The notes beneath the pieces were generated by a model. The model was not told where the DNA came from, searched no databases, and saw only the letters and a program-made list of their open reading frames with translations. Made by a program: the position numbers and the translations under genes. A stretch of 64,000 bases of DNA. Origin: Candidatus Gastranaerophilaceae bacterium (GTDB lineage Bacteria > Cyanobacteriota > Vampirovibrionia > Gastranaerophilales > Gastranaerophilaceae). Where the stretch lies: positions 9,660 through 73,659 of the forward strand of contig JAZUBR010000020.1 of the NCBI GenBank assembly GCA_045638625.1, read 5' to 3'. This document shows, one piece after another, positions 2,674 to 63,978 of this stretch (the first letter of the stretch is position 1; the number at the start of each line of letters is the position of its first letter).

Positions 2674-2952
2674 CTATTTGCCGTTAACGATAGTTTTGAA
2701 GTTTTTACCAGCTGAGAATACAGGAACTGTCTTAGCAGGAATTTTAATTTCTTTGTTAGTTTGTGGGTTTCTGCCGTTTCTTGCAGCTCTCTTACGTGGT
2801 TCGAAAGTACCAAAACCAACTAAAGTAACTTTTTTACCTTTAGCAACAGTCTTTTGAATAGTATCAATTAAAGCACCTAAAACTTCGCTAGCTTCTTTTT
2901 GAGTAACTTTAGCTTTTTTTGAAATCTCTTGCACTAATTCTTCTTTGTTCAT
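2674..2952 (-). CDS. hup: DNA-binding protein HU (paralog 1)
   Basis: The 92-aa product has the HU signature GFGTFEPRKRAARNGRNPQTNKEIKIPAKTVPVFSAGKNFK. An AAGGAG RBS lies 8 nt upstream. Confidence 0.9.
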   Translation of the reverse strand: MNKEELVQEISKKAKVTQKEASEVLGALIDTIQKTVAKGKKVTLVGFGTFEPRKRAARNGRNPQTNKEIKIPAKTVPVFSAGKNFKTIVNGK

Positions 2953-4486: not shown

Positions 4487-4759
4487 ATGAACAAAGAGGA
4501 ATTAGTAAAAGAGATTGCTAAGAAAACAAACTTATCACAAAAAGTAAGTTCAGAAGTTTTGTCTGCACTTGTAGAAACAATTCAAAAAACAGTTTCTAAA
4601 GGCAAAAAAGTTACATTAGTAGGTTTCGGTACTTTCGAAGCTCGTAAAAGAGCTGCTAGAACAGGTCGTAACCCAAGAACTAGCCAAGCAATTAAAATTC
4701 CTGCAAAAACCGTTCCAGCTTTCTCTGCAGGAAAAACTTTCAAAGAGCTTGTTAAGTAA
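4487..4759 (+). CDS. hup: DNA-binding protein HU (paralog 2)
   Basis: The 90-aa product is ~70% identical to paralog 1 and carries GFGTFEARKRAARTGRNPRTSQAIKIPAKTVPAFSAGKTFK. A GGAGGG RBS is present. Confidence 0.9.
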   Translation: MNKEELVKEIAKKTNLSQKVSSEVLSALVETIQKTVSKGKKVTLVGFGTFEARKRAARTGRNPRTSQAIKIPAKTVPAFSAGKTFKELVK

Positions 4760-4787: not shown

Positions 4788-4820
4788 AACGGGCAGTCAA
4801 TGACTGCCCGTTTATTTATA
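4788..4820. terminator. Bidirectional rho-independent terminator between convergent genes
   Basis: The perfect 12-bp stem AACGGGCAGTCA/TGACTGCCCGTT is followed by TTTATTTATA on the plus strand. It sits between the hup-2 stop and the stop of the minus-strand gene ending at 4826. Confidence 0.7.
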
Positions 4821-4825
4821 CTCTA

Positions 4826-6295
4826 TTAAATTTCACCTACTGTTTCTATATCAGAATCGTGTCTTAATTCTTCAAATGCGATAACTCTTAAATTATTCAC
4901 AAACTCTGAGAAAATTAAAAACGTCATCTGTCGAATTTCAAAAGGAGCTAACAGAATAATCTCATCCAATTCTGCAGATTTTGCCAGTCTTTTCATCTTT
5001 CTAACAAGCTTTAATACAGACTCACTATCAACCTTTACAACGCCTTCTCCTTCGCCACAGATTGAGCTCTCATAGAAGTTTTCTATCGTCTTCATTGAGA
5101 GTTCTATAACCTTTAGAGAATCTTTCCCTGCAAACAAATCTTTAGTTATTTGTTTACTCAAGGATAAGCGGATTTTTTCTATTAATTGGTCTTTTGATTC
5201 TTCGGAAGAAAAATCATTTATTTTTTCAAAAATATAAACAATATCCTTAACAGAAACTCTTTCTTTTATCAAAGAAGACAGAATGTACTTTATCTCTGCT
5301 GCAGAGATATAATCAGGATAAATATTATTAATTAAAAACGAGTTCTTTTCCTGCACAACTTCTAGATATTTATTGACAGAATTATAGTCTAGAATTTCTT
5401 CAACATTTTTTATAGAAACAAACTCTAATATCCTCCCGATATACTCTACAGGAGTCAATTTATTAACCCAGTAATCCTTGGCAATATCTTCATCAATCCA
5501 AATTACAGGCTCGTCAGTAATATAGTCCTTTGAAAGAATATCTGTTTTATGTTTTTTATAGGAATCAAAGTCCTTCTTAAACACACATACTTTATTAGGG
5601 AAAACATAATCCTTTACAAGCTCTATCCCATGAAGATTTATGCTAAACTCATTAGCCTCTAAATCCTCTTCATTTGAAAATACAACATTAGGAATTACAT
5701 ACCCTAATGAATCTGCAAGATTCTGTCTAACCTTAACGGTCTCTGCTAAAAGATTATCATCAGTATCCTGAATAACTGTCTCTATAAGTTCTTCTGATAA
5801 GTGGATAACAAACTTATCTTGACTTAGGTTAGAATACATATTATCAGGAGATATTTCCTGAATCAAAGACGCTTTTAATGAATCCAAACGCAATATTTCA
5901 TCAGAAAGTTGCTTATTAAGCAAGTCCTTATCTTTCAATGTAAAAGCATCATTATCTAATTGATATTTTATCTTTGAAATTATCTCTTTTTGCTCTTTTA
6001 TCTTAACTTGCAAATCTTTACAAGTTGAATAAGGTGACAAAGTAGAAGAAAACATCTTTTCCATTGTATTCTTGAAGCTCTTAATCTTTATCACATCATC
6101 AAAGTCTTGGGAAGGTTCTTCTTCTTTCTGACGCATAAAAATACAGTCAAAATAAATCCCGTCTTTTCGCTCAACCTCATGCATTCCGTACAAATCCCAT
6201 CCAGAATTTGACATTTCATTAAGCAAATCCTCTAAACCCTGCTTATCATTAACAATAGCAGACTTTATCACATACTGCATTTTCTGTTTAAACAT
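4826..6295 (-). CDS. Soluble FlhA/SctV (FHIPEP) cytoplasmic-domain homolog with an unrelated N-terminal domain and no transmembrane region
   Basis: The C-terminal ~350 aa match FlhA C-domain blocks. [45 protein letters not shown] matches [46 protein letters not shown] matches [50 protein letters not shown] matches PVLLVSPALRRPLRRLLERFLPDLPVLSYNEI. The N-terminal ~60 aa ([11 protein letters not shown]...) are DUF4177-like, followed by a coiled coil. Confidence 0.7.
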   Translation of the reverse strand: [489 protein letters not shown]

Positions 6296-6305
6296 TATCT
6301 TGCCT

Positions 6306-7613
6306 CTACTTTATAATCCTATATATTAAATCATGTTCCACATTTTCGGTATCCGATAACAGGAACGCATCTTGACAATAGTTTAAAGCATTCTGTGTTT
6401 TACTCTCATCATTAGAATATATTGTACAAAGAGTCTCGCCCTCTTTAACGTACTCTCCAGACTTTTTATCAAGAAAAATACCAACACCATAATCAATCGG
6501 ATCAGATTTTTTATCTCTCCCAGCTCCTAACAATTTACAAGCATAAGCAATTTTTAAAGCATCAATATTTTTGACAAATCCTGATTTTTGCGCCTTCATT
6601 TCATAACGAATATTTGTTGGCGGGAACAACGAGTAATCTTCAAGTACAGCAGGATTGCCACCTTGTGCAACAATAAGTTCCCTGAACTTATCTAATGCAC
6701 GCCCAGAAGCAATTGCTTCTTTTAAAATTAATTTTGCAGATTCTATATCTGCAGCCTTTCCAACCTGAAGCATTGAAAGAGCAGCAAAATCATAGGTAAG
6801 CTCTGCAATATCTCCAGTCGTAATATTGCCTTTTAAGAACTCAATGGCCTCTATAATTTCTAAAGAATTCCCAACGGCACGCCCCAAAGGTTCTTCCATC
6901 GATGTTATAACTGCTGTAATTTTTTTATTCAAATTTTTGCCAATTTGAACCATAATTTCAGATAATTGAACGGCATCCTCTGGTGTTTTCATAAACGCAC
7001 CAGAACCGTACTTAACATCCAAAACTATATTATTTGCCCCAGAAGCAATCTTCTTAGACACAACAGAAGATGCAATCAAAGGTTTGCTATCAACAGTAGA
7101 TGTTACGTCTCTTAAAGCATACAATTTTCCATCAGCAGGTGTTAAGTTCTGAGTTTGTGCTCCAATAGCCACGCCGATTTTTTCAACCTGACTCACCAAA
7201 TCTTTAATCGCTAAGTTCGTATTAAAATTTTGAATCGATTCAAGCTTATCAATAGTACCACCCGTATGCCCAAGCCCTCTCCCAGAAAGCTTTGCGACAG
7301 GAACACCACAAGCAGCCAACAAAGGAATAAGTGTTATCGTAACCTTGTCACCTACGCCACCAGTAGAATGTTTATCTACAACAGAATCTGATAAAGCTCC
7401 TAAGTCAACAATATCTCCAGAATTAATCATAGCCTCAGTCAGGTATGCAGTTTCAGCATCAGTCATACCTTTAAAATAAACCGCCATTAGCCAAGCTGCA
7501 AGCTGATAATCAGCAGCCGTACCATCCATTAGCGAATCTATCAGATAATTAATTTCTTCCTTTGAGAGCTCTTTTCCAAGCTTCTTAGATTGGATAATAT
7601 CAACGACACGCAT
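6306..7613 (-). CDS. pdp: Pyrimidine-nucleoside (thymidine) phosphorylase
   Basis: The 435-aa protein carries STGGVGDKVT, LSGRGLGHTGGTIDKLESI and TLCTIYSNDE in a family-typical layout. Confidence 0.85.
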   Translation of the reverse strand: MRVVDIIQSKKLGKELSKEEINYLIDSLMDGTAADYQLAAWLMAVYFKGMTDAETAYLTEAMINSGDIVDLGALSDSVVDKHSTGGVGDKVTITLIPLLAACGVPVAKLSGRGLGHTGGTIDKLESIQNFNTNLAIKDLVSQVEKIGVAIGAQTQNLTPADGKLYALRDVTSTVDSKPLIASSVVSKKIASGANNIVLDVKYGSGAFMKTPEDAVQLSEIMVQIGKNLNKKITAVITSMEEPLGRAVGNSLEIIEAIEFLKGNITTGDIAELTYDFAALSMLQVGKAADIESAKLILKEAIASGRALDKFRELIVAQGGNPAVLEDYSLFPPTNIRYEMKAQKSGFVKNIDALKIAYACKLLGAGRDKKSDPIDYGVGIFLDKKSGEYVKEGETLCTIYSNDESKTQNALNYCQDAFLLSDTENVEHDLIYRIIK

Positions 7614-8062
7614 TAATTTTTAATACCTTTCAATCTGTCAATAACGATGTCTGTAATATCAACACCGCCTGCAAAAATCACTTTAATATCAACAATGGCA
7701 TCAAGCTTTTGTTCAGCCATTACAATCTTTGCAGCAGATTGAACTTTACTAAAAACTTCTTTTTCTTTGTTTATACGATACTTAACATAAGCATCTTCTT
7801 TTGCTTTATATTCATTTGCAATTCTATCTTTGAACGCTTGTTTTTTCACAGGAGTATCAATAGCTTTAAATTCTTTTTCTCTATCCATCAAATATTGTTG
7901 CAATTCCATACCCTTTGCATCCAAATCTTTGGCAACTGTTTTAGCCAAATCATAACTTGCTAAAACTTTTTCATAGTTAATATATCCTAAGCCTTCTGCA
8001 AAACAAGGTGATGAAACTAAGCCCATAAGAGCCATTAACGCAATCAATTTGATTTTCTTCAT
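7613..8062 (-). CDS. skp: Skp/OmpH-family periplasmic chaperone
   Basis: The 149-aa protein has a signal peptide MKKIKLIALMALMGLVSSPCFA and a K/E-rich helical body. It lies immediately downstream of bamA, the conserved bamA-skp order. Confidence 0.55.
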   Translation of the reverse strand: MKKIKLIALMALMGLVSSPCFAEGLGYINYEKVLASYDLAKTVAKDLDAKGMELQQYLMDREKEFKAIDTPVKKQAFKDRIANEYKAKEDAYVKYRINKEKEVFSKVQSAAKIVMAEQKLDAIVDIKVIFAGGVDITDIVIDRLKGIKN

Positions 8063-33850: not shown

Positions 33851-36800
33851 TTAATCTCCAAAAATTACAAAAGGTATATCATGTTCTAACGCATAGCGCC
33901 TCAAAAATTCAGTTCTTTCTGATACAGATTTGGCAGGAGCATTACCAAAACTGTGATGTTCATTAGAATTAATTGTAGTTCTACTTAAGAATTCTATAGG
34001 ATTTTCAATCCGTTCGGTATAGTCTATACTATATGCAAAAACTGCCATTGGTGGTTGTGGGTTAGAGCCATACATCTCATTATATTCTCTATTACCCTTT
34101 CTAACATTTGAGTTTATGGTAGCTAGTGCTTTAATAATAGCTTCTCTTATTTCTACTGGATATATCTCAGAAAAAGATTTATTTTTATTTTCTCCTACAA
34201 ACCGAACATATTGTTCATCATCCATGCCAGTAGCTTCTTTAATTAAGTTTGATACATAAACACGCTCCGATTCTCTTTCGCCGCCAAAAATATAATTTGA
34301 TTTAAATTCTTCAATATTCTTACGACGACCCGAGCCAGAATCTGTGTTACCGCCACCATGGATATAGGTTGTATCGAAATTTAGCAATACACCTTGTGGT
34401 CTAAAGAATCTATATTTGCTTTCTGGGCGTTCTGCGTAACTTACTGATAATAATGCATCATTATCAACTAATGAAAAGGCATCAAACTTTGTCAGTTGAT
34501 ATTCATAATCAAGTGCGTGAGCAAAAAATTTTATATTACCAGTGTCGACATCACATTCCTCCCCTGCCTCGTTGACACCTTTTGCACTAATACCGTGCGA
34601 ACAAGTACCCTTAGAAAATCCAATCAATTCCCAATCCTCTACTTCATTAAACTTTATTATTACCATACCATTTGAATCTACATAAACACCTTTTAAGTTA
34701 GTGGTTCCATCTGGTTTAATATCCATTATCGCTTGCTTAATTCTGCTCATTGTCGGAATTTGTGTCACAGGTAAAATAGGTTTTGATTTTTGCAATTCTT
34801 GTACATAATCTTTTATTCTTTGAGCATATACTTCTGCAGAATCCCCAAAGCTACGTCTTACTCCTTCTATAGTAATTCGATTACTACCATCCATTGTATC
34901 GCGAAAACTATCATCAGTTTTCACAGCTCTTAAATCAGCATTAGCAAACATTAATGCCATATCAAAAAGATTTTCGTGCTGTAGATCAAATGCTACGGAT
35001 TGTAAACGTTTAGTAAGCACCTCTTCATTTTTAGAAGTGTTTACATATTCTAGCCACTCATGATGTTTGATGAGCGTATATAACTTAAGTTCCTGCTCTC
35101 TTGGCAAATTAAATTTCTTCGCAATAAAGAAACTGTCAAAACTACTTTCATTAGCATGCGTTTTATCATCAGAACCTTCTCTTTTTGTCACATCATGTAA
35201 AAGAGAGGCTAATAACATAATTTTTTTATCATCATCATTTAATTTCTCAAATTTTGGATCTTGTGCTATTTTTTGCATTACTTTTAATGAATGTTGTAAA
35301 ACATCATAGCTATGGGTACGATGTTGTGGCTTTCCTAATTGAACTCTTAATTCTGGGAGCACATCAACTATTTCATTTAAAATGCGTTCCACTTCTGGGT
35401 TATTACACTTCACCTTGTTGTTTTCTGAAAACTTAATTACATCAGGACGAAGTAGTTCAACAACTTCTTTTGTTTTTAAATTAGTAATCTGTGCTAGTTT
35501 TTTACCATTGTTTAAGTTTACAGGATAGCCCGTAATTGTATAACCTGTAGGATTTTTCTTACTGTGATGTAATTCAAAGCCAAAATAGTCATATACTTTT
35601 TGACGTTCTTTAGAAGAGAGCTCTTTGGTTTTCTCTAAAACAAGCTTTATAAAATCATTTTTAGACATTTCTTGAGTTATGTTGAGATTTGCAAAATCAT
35701 TATCCGATAGTTTTGCAAGACAGGTCGCAGCCTCACTTACTGATTTGTTAAAGTTATTTACTTCATCTGGCTTTAAGGTATTTGTTTCAATACCAAGAGA
35801 ACGTACTATTAATGGTAATAAGGTACAGTATTCATCTTTATTAGTAGGAATTAATGGAAAAGCCTCTTTTATTCTATCCGTTGTTTTAAACAAGCCTTCA
35901 TTACATTTTACTAGACGTCGTAACAGTTCTTTTTTACCCGCTTGCGGAATTTCATTAATATTTTTAACATGATAAATGTCAACCATTTGACACGCTAATA
36001 AGAATTCTTCATTTGCAAGTTTCTTCACATTATCTTTACCCATCTTCTTAATGAGTTTTTTCGTATCTAAATAGTTTATACTATTGGAGTTGGCAATTAA
36101 AGTATTTAGCTTTTCTATTGGAATTTCCAATTTAGAGTATTCTTCACAAAGCTTTTCAGCAAATGAAATATTATCTTTTGTCGTTACCATGAGAATAGTC
36201 GCTATCTCTTCTGGGGGAAACGCCTTATCAGCATATAGTTTTTCAGCAAGCGCAAGATTATTTTCATTTGTTTCCCAAAGAATGCTTGAGATATGTTCTT
36301 TGGGAAATTCTTTGTCAGTACAAAGTTTTTTAGCAAACGAAAGATTAATTGAACCTGCTCCCCAAAGAATGCTTGAGATATGTTCTTTTGGGAAATCTTT
36401 GTCAGCACAAAGAGCTTCTGCTAGAGGTAATTTTTCTTTACTAACTCTGCGCAGGATATCCCTTATATATTCTTTGGGGAATTCTTTATCTGCACAAAGT
36501 GCTTCCGCTAGAGGTAATTTTTCTTTATTAACACTGTATAAGATATCTCCTATATGTTCTTTTGGGAAATCCTTGTCTGTAAAAAGCCTTTCAGCAAATT
36601 CTAAATTGACATTATGTAACTCTACAACCAATGAAAATAAATCTTTACTCAAGAAATCTTTGTTTGAATAAAGAAGGAGGTTTTCAATAAAAGAAATTTC
36701 TTTTTCTTTGTACCCGCGGGTATCAATTATATGCAGAATCCGCATACATTCTCCTACATCAATTTCTTGGTGTATACAAAGCTTTTCTGCAATTTTATTA

Positions 36801-48849: not shown

Positions 48850-50238
48850 TTATTTTTTCTTTGTTGCAATTACTTCTAGTAAAGCTTCGACTATTATTGG
48901 GTCCCACTTTATTCCAGATTCTTCTTTTATAATCTGTATAGCCTTAGATTTTGGTAGAGCTTTTCTGTAAGCTCTGTCAGAAATCATTGCACAATACGCA
49001 TCTGCAACTGCAATAATTCTCGAACCTAATGGAATAGAATTACCTTTTAAGCCTTCTGGTTCACCTTTACCATCCCAGCGTTCTTTATGGTAATGAATAT
49101 ATGGAATAACTTCTGACAAGAAGTTTATATTCATCAATAAATTCACACCAACATTTGGATGGTTTTGAAGTTTTTCCCATTCTGCCTTTGTAAGTTTCTT
49201 ATCAGAAGCAAACAAAGACTCTGGCAAAGTGATTTTACCAATGTTTTGCAACAAACCTGCAAAATATATTAAGTCAGTTGTTTTTTCATTCAAACCTAAA
49301 TGATTACAAATCTTTCTAGAAAGTTTTGCAACATTCTTTGAGTGTTCAACCTTATATTGACCTTTTGCATCCACAGCTTTTACAAGTTTTTCAACAAACG
49401 ATTGTTGGCAATCACCTAAATCACCAATAAGTGCTGTTAATTCACCTCTTGCATGCTGTAATTCAATTGCATCTGGCTCATCTTCTGCTAACAATTCTTG
49501 AGCTACATCAATTGTTTTTTGAAGAGAAAGTGATGTCCCAAACAGTGCTGCGATTGCCTCTAGCAGTTTGATATAAGGCTTTCTCATTGCCTGAGCTTGC
49601 TTACATCCTACTACCACAACACCCACAATATGAGCATTGTTATGCATAGGAACAATTAATAAAGACTGTAACGTTTCCTCTTCTAATTCTGATTTAGGGA
49701 AGAAGTTCTTGCACTCCGCTACACTTTCTACCTCGATAGTTTTAATCGATTTAAAAGCTTTAACTGCAACATCTTTACCAGTAAGTTTATAACCTAAATC
49801 TTTTTCATAAATATCAAAGTCACATTCCAATGAAGTACCAACCAGTGGTAAATCATTTTCTGAAGAGTCAAACTCTCTAGCGAATTCCTTTGTTAAATAT
49901 ATATTACAAACATCAGTATCCAAAATATTTGTCATTGTCTTTGCGATAGCGTTATAAATAACATACTCTTCTTTTGAATTGAACCCCAAAACTCTAAGGG
50001 TATTATCCAACGAGTAAATAGAAATAAGCTCTCTTAACTGCGAAATAAGCTTTTCAGACTTAGAACGCATGTCTTTGCCGATTTTGCTTGCCAACTCATC
50101 TGATATCAGGTACTCGGAGATAAAATCGCCTAAATTCAGCGCAAAAATCTCTTCGAGGGGGTCGCCTTCCATCAAATCGAGAGTTCGTCCAAACAATGAT
50201 GCTCCTGATTGTTCTTCCGGCATGTTATTTCCTTCCAT
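48850..50238 (-). CDS. HD-GYP domain c-di-GMP phosphodiesterase with an N-terminal GAF-like sensor
   Basis: The protein carries HSKNVAKLS...LLQNIGKI and HYHKERWDGKGEPEGL (HHExWDGxGYP-like). A terminator hairpin (TCCCCATTC/GAATGGGGA) lies just past the stop. Confidence 0.75.
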   Translation of the reverse strand: MEGNNMPEEQSGASLFGRTLDLMEGDPLEEIFALNLGDFISEYLISDELASKIGKDMRSKSEKLISQLRELISIYSLDNTLRVLGFNSKEEYVIYNAIAKTMTNILDTDVCNIYLTKEFAREFDSSENDLPLVGTSLECDFDIYEKDLGYKLTGKDVAVKAFKSIKTIEVESVAECKNFFPKSELEEETLQSLLIVPMHNNAHIVGVVVVGCKQAQAMRKPYIKLLEAIAALFGTSLSLQKTIDVAQELLAEDEPDAIELQHARGELTALIGDLGDCQQSFVEKLVKAVDAKGQYKVEHSKNVAKLSRKICNHLGLNEKTTDLIYFAGLLQNIGKITLPESLFASDKKLTKAEWEKLQNHPNVGVNLLMNINFLSEVIPYIHYHKERWDGKGEPEGLKGNSIPLGSRIIAVADAYCAMISDRAYRKALPKSKAIQIIKEESGIKWDPIIVEALLEVIATKKK

Positions 50239-62110: not shown

Positions 62111-62573
62111 TGTTTAATCCTTCTATAATATATTCATACATCTTACCCTTTGATGAAAACTCATAGCATCTATTGTCGTCATCATCATAAGTAACTCTAA
62201 TTTCTAATCTATCAAAAGGCAAAGAGCCTGCATCAAACTCCGCCCACTCAACAAGCGTAATCTTTTTCCCGCTAGTATACTCTCTTAATTCATCTTCAAT
62301 AGTTGAAATTCCAACATTCTCAAGACGATATAAATCAAAGTGATATAATGGTAATTTTGCACTGTGATATTCATTTAATATAACAAAACTCGGACTAGTT
62401 ACTCTTTCAGTAACCCCAATAGCTTCAGCTAATTTCTTTACGAAAGCCGTTTTTCCAGCACCGATTTCACCATACAAACATACAAAAACTCCGTTTTCTA
62501 TTAATTTAGAAAAATCTTGAGCAAGTTTAGCAGTTTCATCTAATGTTGTACAAACTCTTTTATACACGTCCAT
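62097..62573 (-). CDS. tsaE: tRNA threonylcarbamoyladenosine biosynthesis ATPase TsaE (YjeE)
   Basis: The P-loop is LYGEIGAGKTAFVK. The size and its operon with tsaB fit TsaE. Confidence 0.8.
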   Translation of the reverse strand: MDVYKRVCTTLDETAKLAQDFSKLIENGVFVCLYGEIGAGKTAFVKKLAEAIGVTERVTSPSFVILNEYHSAKLPLYHFDLYRLENVGISTIEDELREYTSGKKITLVEWAEFDAGSLPFDRLEIRVTYDDDDNRCYEFSSKGKMYEYIIEGLNSVNA

Positions 62574-63978
62574 TTACCTCAACCCTATTCCTTCCATTAC
62601 GTTTTGCTTCATACAACGCATCATCAGCTTTTATATAAAGCTCTTCAGGCTTACTACCTTGTGAATATTGGGCAACTCCAATACTCACTGTCACCTTAAG
62701 ATTCAAACTTTTTTCTTCTTCCTCAAATTTTACATTTAATTCTTCAACTCCAGCTCTCACACGTTCCGCAACTGCCTTTGCGGCATCCAAATCTGTAAAA
62801 GGAAGTAATACACAGATTTCTTCACCACCATATCTCGCAGGAATATCCGCTTCACGTAAATTTTGACGAACAGTAGTTGCAACCTCCTTCAAAACAACAT
62901 CTCCTACAGCATGCCCGTATGTATCATTGAAATTCTTAAAGAAATCAATATCTAGCATCATTACAGACAGTGCATGTCCTTGACGTTCAGCTTGAGAAGT
63001 TTCCTGCTTCAAACGAACTTCTAGCTGTCTACGGTTATTAAGCCCAGTCAAAGCATCTAAAGTTGCATACTGCAAGACTTCTGAATAAGAATTTGCTCTA
63101 CTAATCGTAATAGAGGATTGTTTAGTCAATTGTTCTAAGTAATCAATCTCTCCAGGTTTTAATCTTTCTGATAAACTTTTTGCAATGATACACCCTAACA
63201 GATTATTCTCAGAAACCATTGCAAAAGCACCTAATTTACCATCTTCTGACAATAGATAATGAGTTTCACAATCCAACTGAGACATCAATACCTTTGCTCG
63301 TTCGTCATTACAAGAATTTGGCCACATCAATTCAAACTTATCATTATTTCTCAAGAAGACATAAATTAAGTGGTCTTCTATAAACCTATCCAACATTTCA
63401 CCAATCAATGGAATAATATAAGTTAGCTCATATTGTGTTTCAATAATTTTGGCAATACTCTTCATTGAGTCATAGAACTCAACATTAGTATGCATTTTTT
63501 CATCAAGAACACTATTTTGAATCTTCAATGCAATTACCGCAGAAAAGATTTTCATAACAGAAAGAAATGACAACTGGATAGAAGTTTCACGTTCAAACCC
63601 TACCTCTATCAAACCTGTTATCTCATCTCCTTTCATTATAGGAAACGCTAACTTTGAAACTTTTATAGAAACCTCTTCCATATTTTGAGGTAATTTATAA
63701 GCTTTTTCGTTAATAATAAAATCATTGAACCAAAACTCATCTATCATATTATTGTATGCAGTAGCAACTTCATCAGGATAAACCTCTTGCAGTGGCTTCA
63801 TATCAGAAAAACAATCTCTAAGAATTTTAGTATTGTTATCTATCAAGAAAATATTCAAGCTTGTAGCATCACCAAAAGAAGAAAAAGCTTTCTTCAAGTC
63901 ACCACCAATTTTATCTGCCGGATGGTCAGAATTTACCAATTTCGTAATATTTTCTAGAAACTTTATATAACTAATCAT
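62560..63978 (-). CDS. GGDEF-domain diguanylate cyclase with an N-terminal GAF-like sensor region
   Basis: LTGLNNRRQLE, ALSVMMLDIDFFKNFNDTYGHAVGD and RYGGEEICVLLP (a GGEEI active-site variant of GG[DE]EF) are present. Confidence 0.75.
   Translation of the reverse strand: MISYIKFLENITKLVNSDHPADKIGGDLKKAFSSFGDATSLNIFLIDNNTKILRDCFSDMKPLQEVYPDEVATAYNNMIDEFWFNDFIINEKAYKLPQNMEEVSIKVSKLAFPIMKGDEITGLIEVGFERETSIQLSFLSVMKIFSAVIALKIQNSVLDEKMHTNVEFYDSMKSIAKIIETQYELTYIIPLIGEMLDRFIEDHLIYVFLRNNDKFELMWPNSCNDERAKVLMSQLDCETHYLLSEDGKLGAFAMVSENNLLGCIIAKSLSERLKPGEIDYLEQLTKQSSITISRANSYSEVLQYATLDALTGLNNRRQLEVRLKQETSQAERQGHALSVMMLDIDFFKNFNDTYGHAVGDVVLKEVATTVRQNLREADIPARYGGEEICVLLPFTDLDAAKAVAERVRAGVEELNVKFEEEEKSLNLKVTVSIGVAQYSQGSKPEELYIKADDALYEAKRNGRNRVEVNGRV

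What the first reader, a model, noticed from the sequence alone, without database searches (positions are those of the whole stretch)
4826..6295. Soluble homolog of the FlhA/SctV (FHIPEP) cytoplasmic domain with no membrane domain and no nearby flagellar or T3SS genes
The C-terminal ~350 aa align block by block with the cytoplasmic ring-forming domain of FlhA, covering the [15 protein letters not shown]...[11 protein letters not shown] block, the ERVSIRDL block and the terminal P.iRr.l.rll.r.lp.l.VlSy.Ei block. The N-terminal ~330-aa polytopic export-gate domain is absent. It is replaced by a ~60-aa DUF4177-like module plus a coiled coil. FlhA-C is the docking platform for export chaperones and substrates, and a free-standing copy outside a flagellar or injectisome locus is unusual. 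The gene sits downstream of pdp in a housekeeping block. It could be an evolutionary remnant co-opted for another function, or a regulator.
Basis: partly seen in the sequence, partly recalled or inferred. Interest (0 to 1): 0.6.

Follow-up and report, generated by a model that had tools for sequence, protein, structure and literature searches.

The report
Membrane-free FlhA export-gate paralogue
A gut non-photosynthetic cyanobacterium (Gastranaerophilales) encodes a conserved soluble copy of the ring-forming cytoplasmic half of the flagellar export-gate protein FlhA; its membrane half is replaced by a small domain and a helical hairpin, and it is probably an uncharacterised accessory part of the flagellar secretion machinery.

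Summary
Window 4826-6295 (-) encodes a 489-aa protein with no membrane segment. Residues ~150-489 match only the cytoplasmic part of FHIPEP/FlhA (Pfam E=7.6e-47, profile 321-655 of 657). The AlphaFold model superposes on Salmonella FlhA-C (TM 0.86). The N-terminus is a weak DUF4177-like beta-alpha-beta-beta domain followed by a helical hairpin. No flagellar or T3SS gene lies in the 64 kb.

It is not a remnant or a frameshift. It belongs to a family of full-length ~488-aa proteins found in 80 species-representative Gastranaerophilales genomes and many metagenome contigs. The gene is usually last in a bamA-ompH-(nucleoside phosphorylase)-X operon.

"No flagellar link" is true only for this window. 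In a basal lineage the gene is followed by fliJ-fliK-flgD-flgE. Flagellin genes lie nearby in 9 of 82 dereplicated loci, and one contig carries canonical flhA just downstream.

The D3 motif is kept. G368 of the GYXLI motif and chaperone-pocket residues F459/T490 are replaced.

Best reading: a soluble, probably ring-forming accessory or regulator of the flagellar type III export apparatus (confidence ~0.4). Main rival: co-option for a flagellum-independent role. It is a new variant of a known kind, auto-annotated but unstudied.

The parts
4826..6295 (-). Gene for the 489-aa soluble FlhA-C paralogue (whole ORF including stop)
   Evidence: ORF list; FHIPEP E=7.6e-47 over the C-terminal part only; family of ~488-aa homologues
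6128..6295 (-). N-terminal beta-alpha-beta-beta domain (residues 1-56), weakly DUF4177-like; conserved motif LLNxMSxxGW(D/E)LY
   Evidence: AF2 models; DUF4177 sub-threshold in 16 of 17 members; L25, N26, W33, E40 and F53 invariant in the 36-sequence alignment
6068..6127 (-). Acidic, low-confidence linker (residues 57-76)
   Evidence: pLDDT below 50 for residues 59-68; least conserved N-terminal segment, 38% mean identity
5852..6067 (-). Short helix (77-83) plus antiparallel helical hairpin (helices 88-114 and 120-148), taking the place of the last FlhA transmembrane helices
   Evidence: AF2 secondary structure, pLDDT ~90; K98, I99 and N127 invariant
4829..5851 (-). FlhA linker-like segment plus FlhA-C fold with four subdomains (residues 149-489)
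   Evidence: Pfam profile 321-655; Foldseek 6ch2_C TM 0.86 over 337 columns; alignment to B. subtilis and Salmonella FlhA-C
6303..6306 (-). GAGG Shine-Dalgarno-like motif overlapping the pdp stop codon, 7 nt before the ATG
   Evidence: read directly from the sequence
6306..7613 (-). pdp (pyrimidine-nucleoside phosphorylase), immediately upstream in the same operon
   Evidence: Pfam Glycos_trans_3N, Glycos_transf_3 and PYNP_C; same position in 68 of 147 informative loci
7613..8062 (-). ompH/skp-like periplasmic chaperone gene, conserved operon partner
   Evidence: Pfam OmpH; synteny
8081..10012 (-). bamA (Omp85 with POTRA domains), first gene of the conserved block
   Evidence: Pfam Omp85 and POTRA; synteny in 78 of 80 genome loci
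4788..4812 (.). 11-bp G+C-rich palindromic hairpin between the gene's stop and the convergent HU gene; likely bidirectional terminator that ends the operon
   Evidence: terminator scan; sequence

Best explanation
The gene encodes a functional, membrane-free paralogue of the cytoplasmic domain of the flagellar export-gate protein FlhA. The family is specific to Gastranaerophilales and related non-photosynthetic Cyanobacteria.

Shown here: the eight-helix gate domain is replaced by a small alpha/beta domain and a helical hairpin. The FlhA linker-like segment and all four FlhA-C subdomains are kept. The family is under purifying selection. It coexists with a canonical FlhA in at least one genome.

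Inferred: the protein still works with the flagellar type III export apparatus as a soluble accessory or regulatory platform. It probably oligomerises through the conserved D3 surface, as FlhA-C and SctV-C nonamers do, with the N-terminal hairpins substituting for the membrane domain as scaffold. It would engage cytoplasmic export components such as FliJ (and FliH/FliI) or export substrates. Binding is unlikely to go through the canonical FliS/FliT/FlgN chaperone pocket, which has diverged. By binding these partners away from the membrane, or by stacking on or mixing with the FlhA ring, it would tune export. In the crown group the gene moved out of the flagellar operon into the bamA-ompH operon. 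It may persist in lineages that keep only the export core.
For: Homology and fold. The best matches are flagellar FlhA, not SctV.

Real, constrained family. There are more than 120 clusters of ~488 aa. Full-length members occur in 80 species-representative genomes and 80 metagenome loci. The family is monophyletic in 50 of 50 NJ bootstraps. The N-domain and D3 are its most conserved parts.

Flagellar linkage in relatives. In L160/L164 the order is infC-rpmI-rplT-X-fliJ-fliK-flgD-flgE on one strand. fliJ, fliK, flgD and the flgE-like gene are Pfam-confirmed; infC and rpmI were only read from their translations. Pfam-confirmed flagellin genes lie within the held DNA in 9 of 82 dereplicated loci. 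They are directly downstream on the same strand in L010 and L095/L105. By my own rough estimate, fewer than 1 such locus of 82 would be expected if flagellin genes were placed at random in a ~2 Mb genome. Canonical flhA (863 bits) lies ~800 nt downstream in L050.

FliJ is a known partner of the FlhA linker and C domain (established knowledge of the Salmonella system).

The lineage carries flagella or partial export-plus-rod gene sets, including FliI and FliJ (PMC3787301; PMC4040986 Table S5; bioRxiv 10.64898/2026.04.24.720558).

The D3 motif (L-I-K/R-E-x-V-S-V/I-K-D-I) and W465 are conserved as in canonical FlhA.
Against: No flagellar gene lies within 64 kb in this window.

In most loci the gene is in a bamA-ompH-(nucleoside phosphorylase) operon, not a flagellar one.

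The invariant G368 of the GYXLI motif is S or T in the 8 representative family members aligned. F459 is T or S, T490 is R/K/N/Q/L, the THL motif is lost, and the RIRDN motif is degenerate. The canonical Gastranaerophilales FlhA keeps these residues. Canonical chaperone docking is therefore unlikely.

The fliJ linkage is seen in one basal lineage only.

Genome-wide co-occurrence with flagellar genes could not be tested.

Oligomerisation and partners are inferred, not shown.

The family evolves about twice as fast as canonical FlhA: median 76% identity against 86-94%.
Confidence: 0.4

Rival explanations
1. Co-opted, flagellum-independent function. The FlhA-C fold was recruited as a soluble scaffold for something unrelated to type III export. 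That role would be tied to the genes it is co-transcribed with: outer-membrane protein biogenesis (bamA, ompH/skp) or nucleoside salvage (pdp or a PNP_UDP_1 phosphorylase).
For: bamA-ompH lies upstream in 78 of 80 genome loci and in most metagenome loci.

The gene immediately upstream, with a gap of about 10-20 nt in most of these loci, is a nucleoside phosphorylase of one of two non-homologous families in 99 of 147 informative loci: pdp in 68 and PNP_UDP_1 in 31.

The two phosphorylase types interleave on the family tree, with at least 3 switches. The PNP-X pair persists in L080 without bamA-ompH.

The chaperone pocket and the GYXLI glycine are lost.

The literature says only about 25-33% of Gastranaerophilales genomes have a full flagellar set, yet the family is found in every sampled clade. 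No flagellar gene occurs in this window.
Against: Operons of small genomes mix unrelated genes, and pdp itself has no known tie to bamA or skp.

Basal members lack the bamA context, so the linkage is derived.

Flagellar neighbours (fliJ-fliK-flgD-flgE, flagellin, flhA) recur in other members.

The protein has no signal peptide or membrane anchor that could bring it to BamA or Skp.

No known biochemical link exists between the FlhA-C fold and nucleosides.
Confidence: 0.3
2. Component of a reduced, non-motility type III secretion device. Non-motile Gastranaerophilales keep the export gate, ATPase and rod but no hook, filament or motor. In these the soluble FlhA-C, and the related 'FDYK'-type FHIPEP proteins, would serve as substrate-docking platforms for a secretion function.
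For: Soo et al. 2014 Table S5 lists the genes kept in four non-motile genomes. They retain FlgB/C/(F)/G, FlhA, FlhB, FliE, FliI, FliJ, FliP and FliR. They lack FliC/D/S, FliF/G/M/N and MotAB.

The 2026 preprint makes a similar statement and mentions a postulated secretion role.

A second non-canonical FHIPEP family is present in the same lineage: an N-terminal soluble domain, the last TM pair and FlhA-C.

The diverged chaperone pocket fits a change of substrates.
Against: Whether the family is present in those particular genomes was not tested. Table S5 lists one 'FlhA' per genome, and its type is unknown.

Partial gene sets in MAGs can reflect incompleteness or decay.

No candidate secreted substrates were identified.
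Confidence: 0.2
3. Non-functional remnant or artefact: a decaying 3' fragment of flhA, a frameshifted full-length gene, or a mis-assembly.
For: Only the C-terminal half of FHIPEP is matched. Some short N-terminal-only ORFs of the family exist on long contigs and may be broken copies.
Against: The intact 489-aa ORF has its own SD-like motif and ATG 10 nt after pdp.

The same architecture and length recur in hundreds of sequences from independent assemblies.

The N-terminal module carries invariant residues.

The model is confident.

No FlhA N-terminal coding remnant occurs anywhere in the window.
Confidence: 0.02

Closest known systems
FlhA (flagellar type III export gate), cytoplasmic domain FlhA-C, e.g. 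Salmonella 3a5i/6ch1, B. subtilis 3mix, Vibrio nonamer 7amy
   Same: Same four-subdomain fold (TM 0.86), with a linker-like segment before D1. Shared conserved core motifs include LGYVIP in D1, W465, the D3 helix L-I-K-E-x-V-S-V-K-D-I, and D4 P-x-x-x-R ... E-E-L. It scores better against FlhA than against SctV models.
   Different: No 8-TM gate domain and no FHIPEP loop. The N-terminus is replaced by a beta-alpha-beta-beta domain plus a helical hairpin. G368 of GYXLI becomes S/T. Of the chaperone-pocket residues, F459 becomes T/S and T490 becomes R/K, and there is a 3-residue deletion in D2. The RIRDN motif is degenerate. The score is far below the FlhA equivalog cut-off (144 vs 772 bits). Here the gene is encoded in a bamA operon rather than a flagellar operon.
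SctV (YscV/InvA/MxiA/CdsV) cytoplasmic domain of injectisomes
   Same: Same fold and ring-forming family. The Foldseek matches to CdsV, MxiA, InvA, SsaV and YscV are about as good structurally as those to FlhA.
   Different: Sequence scores are clearly lower: TIGR01399 gives 83 bits against 144 for FlhA, and PDB E-values are 1e-12 to 1e-5 against 1e-19. No injectisome genes occur in the window or in related loci.
'FDYK'-type non-canonical FHIPEP proteins of the same lineage (P0153, P0154, P0175; soluble variants P0156, P0213)
   Same: These are also FlhA-derived proteins lacking most or all of the gate domain, and they occur in Gastranaerophilales contigs (L079, L087). Their C domains are the nearest relatives of this family outside it, at 27% mean identity against 22% for canonical FlhA.
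   Different: They have a different N-terminal domain (~180 aa, motif FDYK.FA...GEAL) and usually keep the last TM pair (FHIPEP profile from ~261). They keep G368. Their genomic context is different. They too are uncharacterised.
DUF4177 (PF13783) small domain proteins
   Same: Same beta-alpha-beta-beta topology in the model and the G-W-(D/E)-L motif. Sixteen of 17 family N-termini give weak hits.
   Different: All hits are below the gathering score (13.4 bits here against 25). The function of DUF4177 is itself unknown, so the resemblance gives no functional information.
Orphan flagellar export genes in non-flagellated bacteria (e.g. Chlamydia FlhA/FliI/FliF, PMC2830194)
   Same: Flagellar export-type proteins retained outside a complete flagellar system.
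   Different: Those FlhA homologues are full-length membrane proteins. This one is soluble and has a new N-terminal module.

Membership tests
FlhA / FHIPEP (PF00771; NCBIfam TIGR01398 equivalog) | N-terminal polytopic (8-TM) export-gate domain with the FHIPEP cytoplasmic loop | tested here: not met
   The Pfam match covers profile 321-655 of 657 only. The maximum KD19 hydropathy is 1.23 overall and 0.32 in the first 150 residues. No FlhA-N coding remnant occurs in the window.
FlhA / FHIPEP (PF00771; NCBIfam TIGR01398 equivalog) | C-terminal cytoplasmic domain with four subdomains (D1-D4) | tested here: met
   PF00771 E=7.6e-47. The AF2 model superposes on 6ch2_C at TM 0.86 over 337 columns.
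FlhA / FHIPEP (PF00771; NCBIfam TIGR01398 equivalog) | Whole-protein score above the curated equivalog cut-off | tested here: not met
   144.3 bits against a cut-off of 772.1. The Pfam domain-level cut-off (29.1) is passed.
FlhA / FHIPEP (PF00771; NCBIfam TIGR01398 equivalog) | Conserved GYXLI motif (G368 invariant) at the start of D1 | tested here: not met
   G368 is S (T in one) in all 8 soluble-family members aligned, giving the motif L-S-E-E-L. It is G in all 10 canonical and FDYK-type sequences aligned.
FlhA / FHIPEP (PF00771; NCBIfam TIGR01398 equivalog) | Chaperone-binding dimple residues D456, F459 and T490 (Salmonella numbering) | tested here: not met
   D456 is kept (D257). F459 becomes T/S (T260) and T490 becomes R/K/N/Q/L (R288). 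The canonical Gastranaerophilales FlhA (L050) has E/F/T, like B. subtilis. The alignment in D2 is of moderate certainty.
FlhA / FHIPEP (PF00771; NCBIfam TIGR01398 equivalog) | Assembly into a nonameric ring under the export gate | not testable with these tools
   Only monomer prediction was available. Conservation of the D3 helix motif is compatible with a ring but is not a test.
FlhA / FHIPEP (PF00771; NCBIfam TIGR01398 equivalog) | Encoded among flagellar genes | tested here: not met
   None in the 64-kb window. Some family members do meet it: L160/L164 next to fliJ-fliK-flgD-flgE, and L010/L095 next to flagellin.
SctV (NCBIfam TIGR01399, injectisome export gate) | Score above the equivalog cut-off and injectisome gene context | tested here: not met
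   83.3 bits against a cut-off of 692. No T3SS genes occur in the window or in any of the related loci whose neighbouring genes were annotated.
DUF4177 (PF13783) | Score above the Pfam gathering threshold | tested here: not met
   13.4 bits (E=0.093) against a cut-off of 25 for the window protein. Sixteen of 17 family members hit at E<=10, best 5.6e-4.
DUF4177 (PF13783) | Small beta-alpha-beta-beta fold | tested here: inconclusive
   The model has this topology with pLDDT ~90. The structural search was swamped by helical-hairpin matches, and the AFDB library was unavailable.

The most novel reading that the evidence does not exclude
A membrane-free FlhA-C ring has become independent of the flagellum. 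In this reading it is retained in non-motile gut Gastranaerophilales as a cytoplasmic docking hub, either for a reduced rod-plus-gate secretion device or for an unrelated process. Its fixed position behind bamA-ompH would reflect functional coupling. So would the repeated swapping of two non-homologous nucleoside phosphorylases immediately upstream. This would be the first example of the type III export-gate cytoplasmic domain working as a free soluble machine.
Probability: 0.25. Interest if true: 0.75.

Novelty: new variant of a known kind. Interest (0 to 1): 0.5.

Why it matters
FlhA-C and SctV-C form the substrate-sorting ring of every flagellum and injectisome. As far as four full-text searches here showed, they have been studied only as part of the membrane-embedded gate.

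A naturally soluble, conserved paralogue offers three things. It would be a ready-made tool for testing what the ring does apart from the gate. It is a possible new regulator of flagellar export in an abundant but uncultured gut lineage. It may also explain part of the 'partial flagellar gene sets' reported for non-motile Gastranaerophilales, because Pfam- or KEGG-based surveys are likely to score this protein as FlhA/FHIPEP.

There is also an annotation caveat. The name 'FHIPEP family type III secretion protein' on these ~488-aa proteins should not be read as evidence of an export gate.

Tried and rejected
(1) Exact look-up of the window protein's contig: not on record.

(3) A profile search of 5.8 billion proteins with the N-terminal 142 residues returned only fragments of the same family (one carries an extra precomputed Pfam hit, PF21699, which I did not examine). 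No other clear domain partner was found.

(4) The sigma-70 promoter scan gave 26 sites against 23.2 +/- 4.9 in shuffles, so it is uninformative.

(5) I tried to compare the abundance of canonical FlhA and the soluble family through cluster lists. Canonical FlhA has more than 120 clusters at >=86% identity, so the list saturates and says nothing about co-occurrence.

(6) PilZ adjacency. L170 has a PilZ gene just upstream. The equivalent 172- and 177-aa genes in L173 and L161 are not PilZ homologues, so this is not a general feature.

(7) Frameshifted or truncated flhA: rejected.

(8) Recent duplicate of the lineage's own FlhA: rejected. The L050 canonical FlhA C domain scores only 49 bits against this C domain, less than FDYK-type proteins at 90-124 bits.

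(9) Four literature searches for a described soluble FlhA-C protein found nothing relevant.
Full report
1. What is at the coordinates

The minus strand of 4826-6295 carries one intact ORF of 489 aa with an ATG start. A GAGG motif overlaps the stop codon of the upstream gene pdp, 7 nt before the ATG. The pdp-to-ORF gap is 10 nt. An 11-bp G+C-rich palindromic hairpin (4788-4812) lies between the stop codon and the convergent HU gene.

Pfam finds one family, FHIPEP (PF00771, E=7.6e-47). The match covers residues 150-480 against profile positions 321-655 of 657, which is only the cytoplasmic half of FlhA/SctV. NCBIfam ranks flagellar FlhA (144 bits) above SctV (83 bits). Both are far below their equivalog cut-offs because half of the model is missing. 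The best solved relatives are B. subtilis FlhA-C (E=1.5e-19) and other FlhA-C and SctV-C structures.

No stretch of the protein is hydrophobic enough for a membrane helix.

An AlphaFold2 model built on 36 family sequences has pLDDT 84 and pTM 0.71. It shows these elements in order:
- A beta-alpha-beta-beta domain (residues 6-56).
- A disordered acidic linker.
- An antiparallel helical hairpin (88-114 and 120-148).
- A complete FlhA-C fold.

The model superposes on Salmonella FlhA-C (6ch2_C) with TM 0.86 over 337 columns. It also superposes on CdsV, MxiA, InvA, SsaV and YscV.

The 'DUF4177-like' label is only weakly supported. The window protein scores 13.4 bits against a cut-off of 25, although 16 of 17 family N-termini give the same sub-threshold hit.

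2. The surroundings in the window

The gene is the last of four on the minus strand: bamA (Omp85/POTRA), ompH/skp, pdp, then the gene. The rest of the 64 kb encodes housekeeping and signalling proteins. None gave a flagellar or type III secretion Pfam hit. tblastn with FlhA-N, FliF, FliH, FliJ, FliK, FlgD, FlgE-N and flagellin queries from related contigs found nothing in the window.

3. It is a family, and it belongs to Gastranaerophilales

A search of 5.8 billion proteins returned more than 120 clusters of 481-491 aa at 47-82% identity, plus two shorter fragments. All carry PF00771 only.

An exhaustive search of 50%-identity representatives found about 18 full-length clusters that share the N-terminal module (30-47% identity). 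After these comes a gap, then other FHIPEP architectures.

In one-genome-per-species contigs, the 80 best loci are nearly all full-length members. Most come from MAGs labelled Gastranaerophilales, Melainabacteria or Vampirovibrio, from gut and rumen. A few are labelled Acinetobacter, Muribaculaceae or Anaerovoracaceae but share the same synteny, so they are probably mislabelled bins. Eighty further loci came from metagenomes.

NCBI already names members 'FHIPEP family type III secretion protein [Candidatus Gastranaerophilales bacterium]'. I found no paper that discusses them.

The alignment shows invariant residues in the N-domain (L25, N26, W33, E40, F53), in the hairpin (K98, I99, N127) and throughout the C domain. 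The N-domain and D3 are the best-conserved parts.

The N-terminal module was not found fused to any other clear domain partner.

4. Relation to other FlhA proteins

Gastranaerophilales have a canonical FlhA that is very conserved, at 86-94% identity over more than 120 clusters. The soluble family is 68-84% identical over the same clade, with a median of 76%. It evolves about twice as fast but is clearly constrained.

The C domain of the soluble family forms its own clade in 50 of 50 NJ bootstraps. It is not a recent copy of the lineage's FlhA, because the L050 FlhA C domain scores only 49 bits against it.

Its nearest outside relatives form a second non-canonical group. These proteins have:
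- An N-terminal soluble domain with the motif FDYK.FA...GEAL.
- Usually the last TM pair of FlhA.
- FlhA-C.

This second group also occurs in Gastranaerophilales contigs (L079, L087) and outside flagellar operons.

5. Which FlhA features are kept

I aligned Salmonella and B. subtilis FlhA-C, five metagenomic canonical FlhAs, three FDYK-type proteins and eight family members.

Kept in the soluble family:
- The LGYVIP block in D1.
- D456.
- W465.
- The D3 helix L-I-(K/R)-E-x-V-S-(V/I)-K-D-I-x-x-I-F-E-K-I-N-D.
- The D4 P-x-x-x-R ... E-E-L blocks.

Changed in the soluble family:
- The otherwise invariant G368 of the GYXLI motif is S or T, giving the family motif L-S-E-E-L.
- F459 is T or S.
- T490 is R/K/N/Q/L, and the THL motif is lost.
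- There is a 3-residue deletion in D2.
- The RIRDN motif is degenerate.

The canonical Gastranaerophilales FlhA (L050) keeps G, F and T. D456, F459 and T490 are the residues whose mutants define the chaperone-binding dimple. The PDB titles 6ai1 (D456V), 6ai2 (F459A) and 6ai3 (T490M) reflect this. From established knowledge of the Salmonella system, that dimple binds FlgN, FliT and FliS complexes.

I infer that canonical chaperone docking is unlikely in this family. The structural core, and probably the oligomerisation surface, are retained.

6. Genomic context across the family

Among 147 loci with enough upstream DNA, the gene immediately upstream on the same strand, usually 10-20 nt away, falls into these classes:

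| Upstream gene | Loci |
|---|---|
| pdp | 68 |
| PNP_UDP_1-family nucleoside phosphorylase (not homologous to pdp) | 31 |
| ompH | 33 |
| PSP1-domain gene | 5 |
| something else | 10 |

bamA-ompH precedes the gene in 78 of 80 genome loci. On an NJ tree of the family the pdp and PNP types interleave, with at least three switches. Direct ompH adjacency arose several times. L080 keeps the PNP-gene pair without bamA-ompH. This recurrent pairing with two unrelated nucleoside phosphorylases is unexplained.

Basal branches lack the bamA context. One of them is decisive for interpretation. In L160/L164 (36% identity, same architecture) the order on one strand is infC-rpmI-rplT, the family gene, fliJ (PF02050, E=2e-17), fliK, flgD, then a flgE-like gene. 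About 147 nt separate the family gene from fliJ. The infC and rpmI assignments rest on reading their translations, not on a profile hit.

Pfam-confirmed flagellin genes, some giant at 1,355 aa, lie within the held DNA in 9 of 82 dereplicated loci. They are directly downstream on the same strand in L010 (+271 nt) and L095/L105 (+249 nt). They are ~1 kb away in L042, L054 and L091, and upstream of bamA in L006 and L063. With a few flagellin genes per ~2 Mb genome and ~20 kb inspected, I estimate that fewer than one such locus would be expected by chance. Shared ancestry inflates the count, but the varied positions suggest an eroding ancestral linkage.

L050 carries the family gene, an integrase fragment, canonical flhA (863 bits) and a PilZ gene in a row. 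The two FlhA-type proteins therefore coexist in one genome.

7. Literature context

Di Rienzi et al. (PMC3787301) reported flagella in gut Melainabacteria.

Soo et al. (PMC4040986) found complete sets in 3 of 9 Gastranaerophilales genomes. Their Table S5 lists the genes kept in four non-motile genomes:
- Retained: FlgB/C/(F)/G, FlhA, FlhB, FliE, FliI, FliJ, FliP and FliR.
- Absent: FliC/D/S, FliF/G/M/N and MotAB.

A 2026 preprint (10.64898/2026.04.24.720558) reports about 25% of genomes with full sets and partial sets in the rest.

Surveys based on PF00771 or KEGG are likely to count the protein studied here as 'FlhA'.

8. Interpretation

Shown:
- It is a conserved, soluble FlhA-C paralogue with a lineage-specific N-terminal module.
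- It is distinct from the canonical FlhA and coexists with it.
- It is flagellar-operon-linked in a basal lineage and flagellin-linked in several others.
- It sits in a bamA-ompH-phosphorylase operon in the crown group, including this window.

Inferred (confidence about 0.4):
- It remains an accessory or regulator of the flagellar type III export apparatus.
- It is probably oligomeric through the conserved D3 surface, with the hairpins replacing the membrane domain as scaffold.
- It engages FliJ, FliH/FliI or substrates by a non-canonical surface.

The main rival (about 0.3) is co-option to a flagellum-independent role connected with its operon partners. A variant (about 0.2) places it in a reduced rod-plus-gate secretion device of non-motile members. 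A remnant or artefact is essentially excluded.

9. Verdict

The finding is real and more interesting than a stray domain, but it is a variant of a known protein kind. The family is already auto-annotated, and its function is unstudied. Interest 0.5; novelty: new variant of a known kind.

Noticed in passing
window 10090-13062 (-) and 13278-16274 (-): Two tandem paralogous ORFs of 990 and 998 aa (55% identical) with no Pfam hit. Local G+C is 27-29% against about 35% around them. They lie between the LOG-family gene and bamA. The 75%-identical relative (L083) has only a 110-aa ACPS gene at that spot, so this looks like a lineage-specific insertion of unknown function.
   Followed up: partly
L079 491-967 (-); L087 8001-10079; L085 742-2643; proteins P0153, P0154, P0157, P0175, P0156, P0213: A second non-canonical FHIPEP family in Gastranaerophilales. 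It has a ~180-aa soluble N-terminal domain (motif FDYK.FA...GEAL), usually the last TM pair of FlhA (profile from ~261), and FlhA-C. Some members (P0156, P0213) have no TM at all. It is not in a flagellar operon in L087. No description was found.
   Followed up: partly
loci L110-L155 (e.g. L111 9219-9989), L077, L080 5077-5832, versus window 6306-7613: The slot immediately upstream of the family gene is filled by either of two non-homologous nucleoside phosphorylases: pdp/PYNP in 68 loci and a PNP_UDP_1 family member in 31. The two interleave on the family tree. This looks like repeated non-orthologous replacement at one operon position and is unexplained.
   Followed up: partly
L095 11689-15756; L042 12440-15490; L006 347-4488; L059 18310-21399 (-): Giant flagellin genes next to the locus in several species: 1,355 aa in L095 and more than 1,000 aa in L042, with Flagellin_N and Flagellin_C ends and DUF3060 inserts. 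In L006 the gene is split into two ORFs, either a frameshift or an assembly error.
   Followed up: partly
window 33851-39265 (-): A 1,804-aa ORF whose only Pfam hit is a weak HD domain (residues 1322-1406). It is otherwise unannotated.
   Followed up: no
window 2674-2952 (-) and 4487-4759 (+): Two HU-family DNA-binding protein genes lie within 2 kb on opposite strands, flanking a SIMPL/DUF541 gene. The second is convergent with the FlhA-C paralogue and shares its terminator hairpin.
   Followed up: no
L003, L063 ('uncultured Acinetobacter sp.'); L074, L076, L080 ('Muribaculaceae'); L068 ('Anaerovoracaceae'): These MAG records carry taxon names at odds with their content. Apart from L080, their loci have the same bamA-ompH-(pdp)-X synteny as Gastranaerophilales, with BamA 60-67% identical to the window's. 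L080 lacks bamA-ompH but carries a full-length family member. The labels are probably wrong.
   Followed up: no
window 48850-50238 (-), 62560-63978 (-); L154 7614-9395 (-); L050 5966-6562; L170 7423-7941: Cyclic-di-GMP-type signalling genes are frequent around the locus in the window and its relatives: GAF-HD-GYP-like HD_5, GGDEF and PilZ. A PilZ gene directly follows canonical flhA in L050 and directly precedes the family gene in L170.
   Followed up: partly
proteins P0281 (172 aa, 51.6-kb contig), P0288 (177 aa, 270-kb contig), P0313, P0321: Short ORFs consisting only of the family's N-terminal module on long contigs. They may be broken copies or genuine stand-alone versions of the module.
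   Followed up: no
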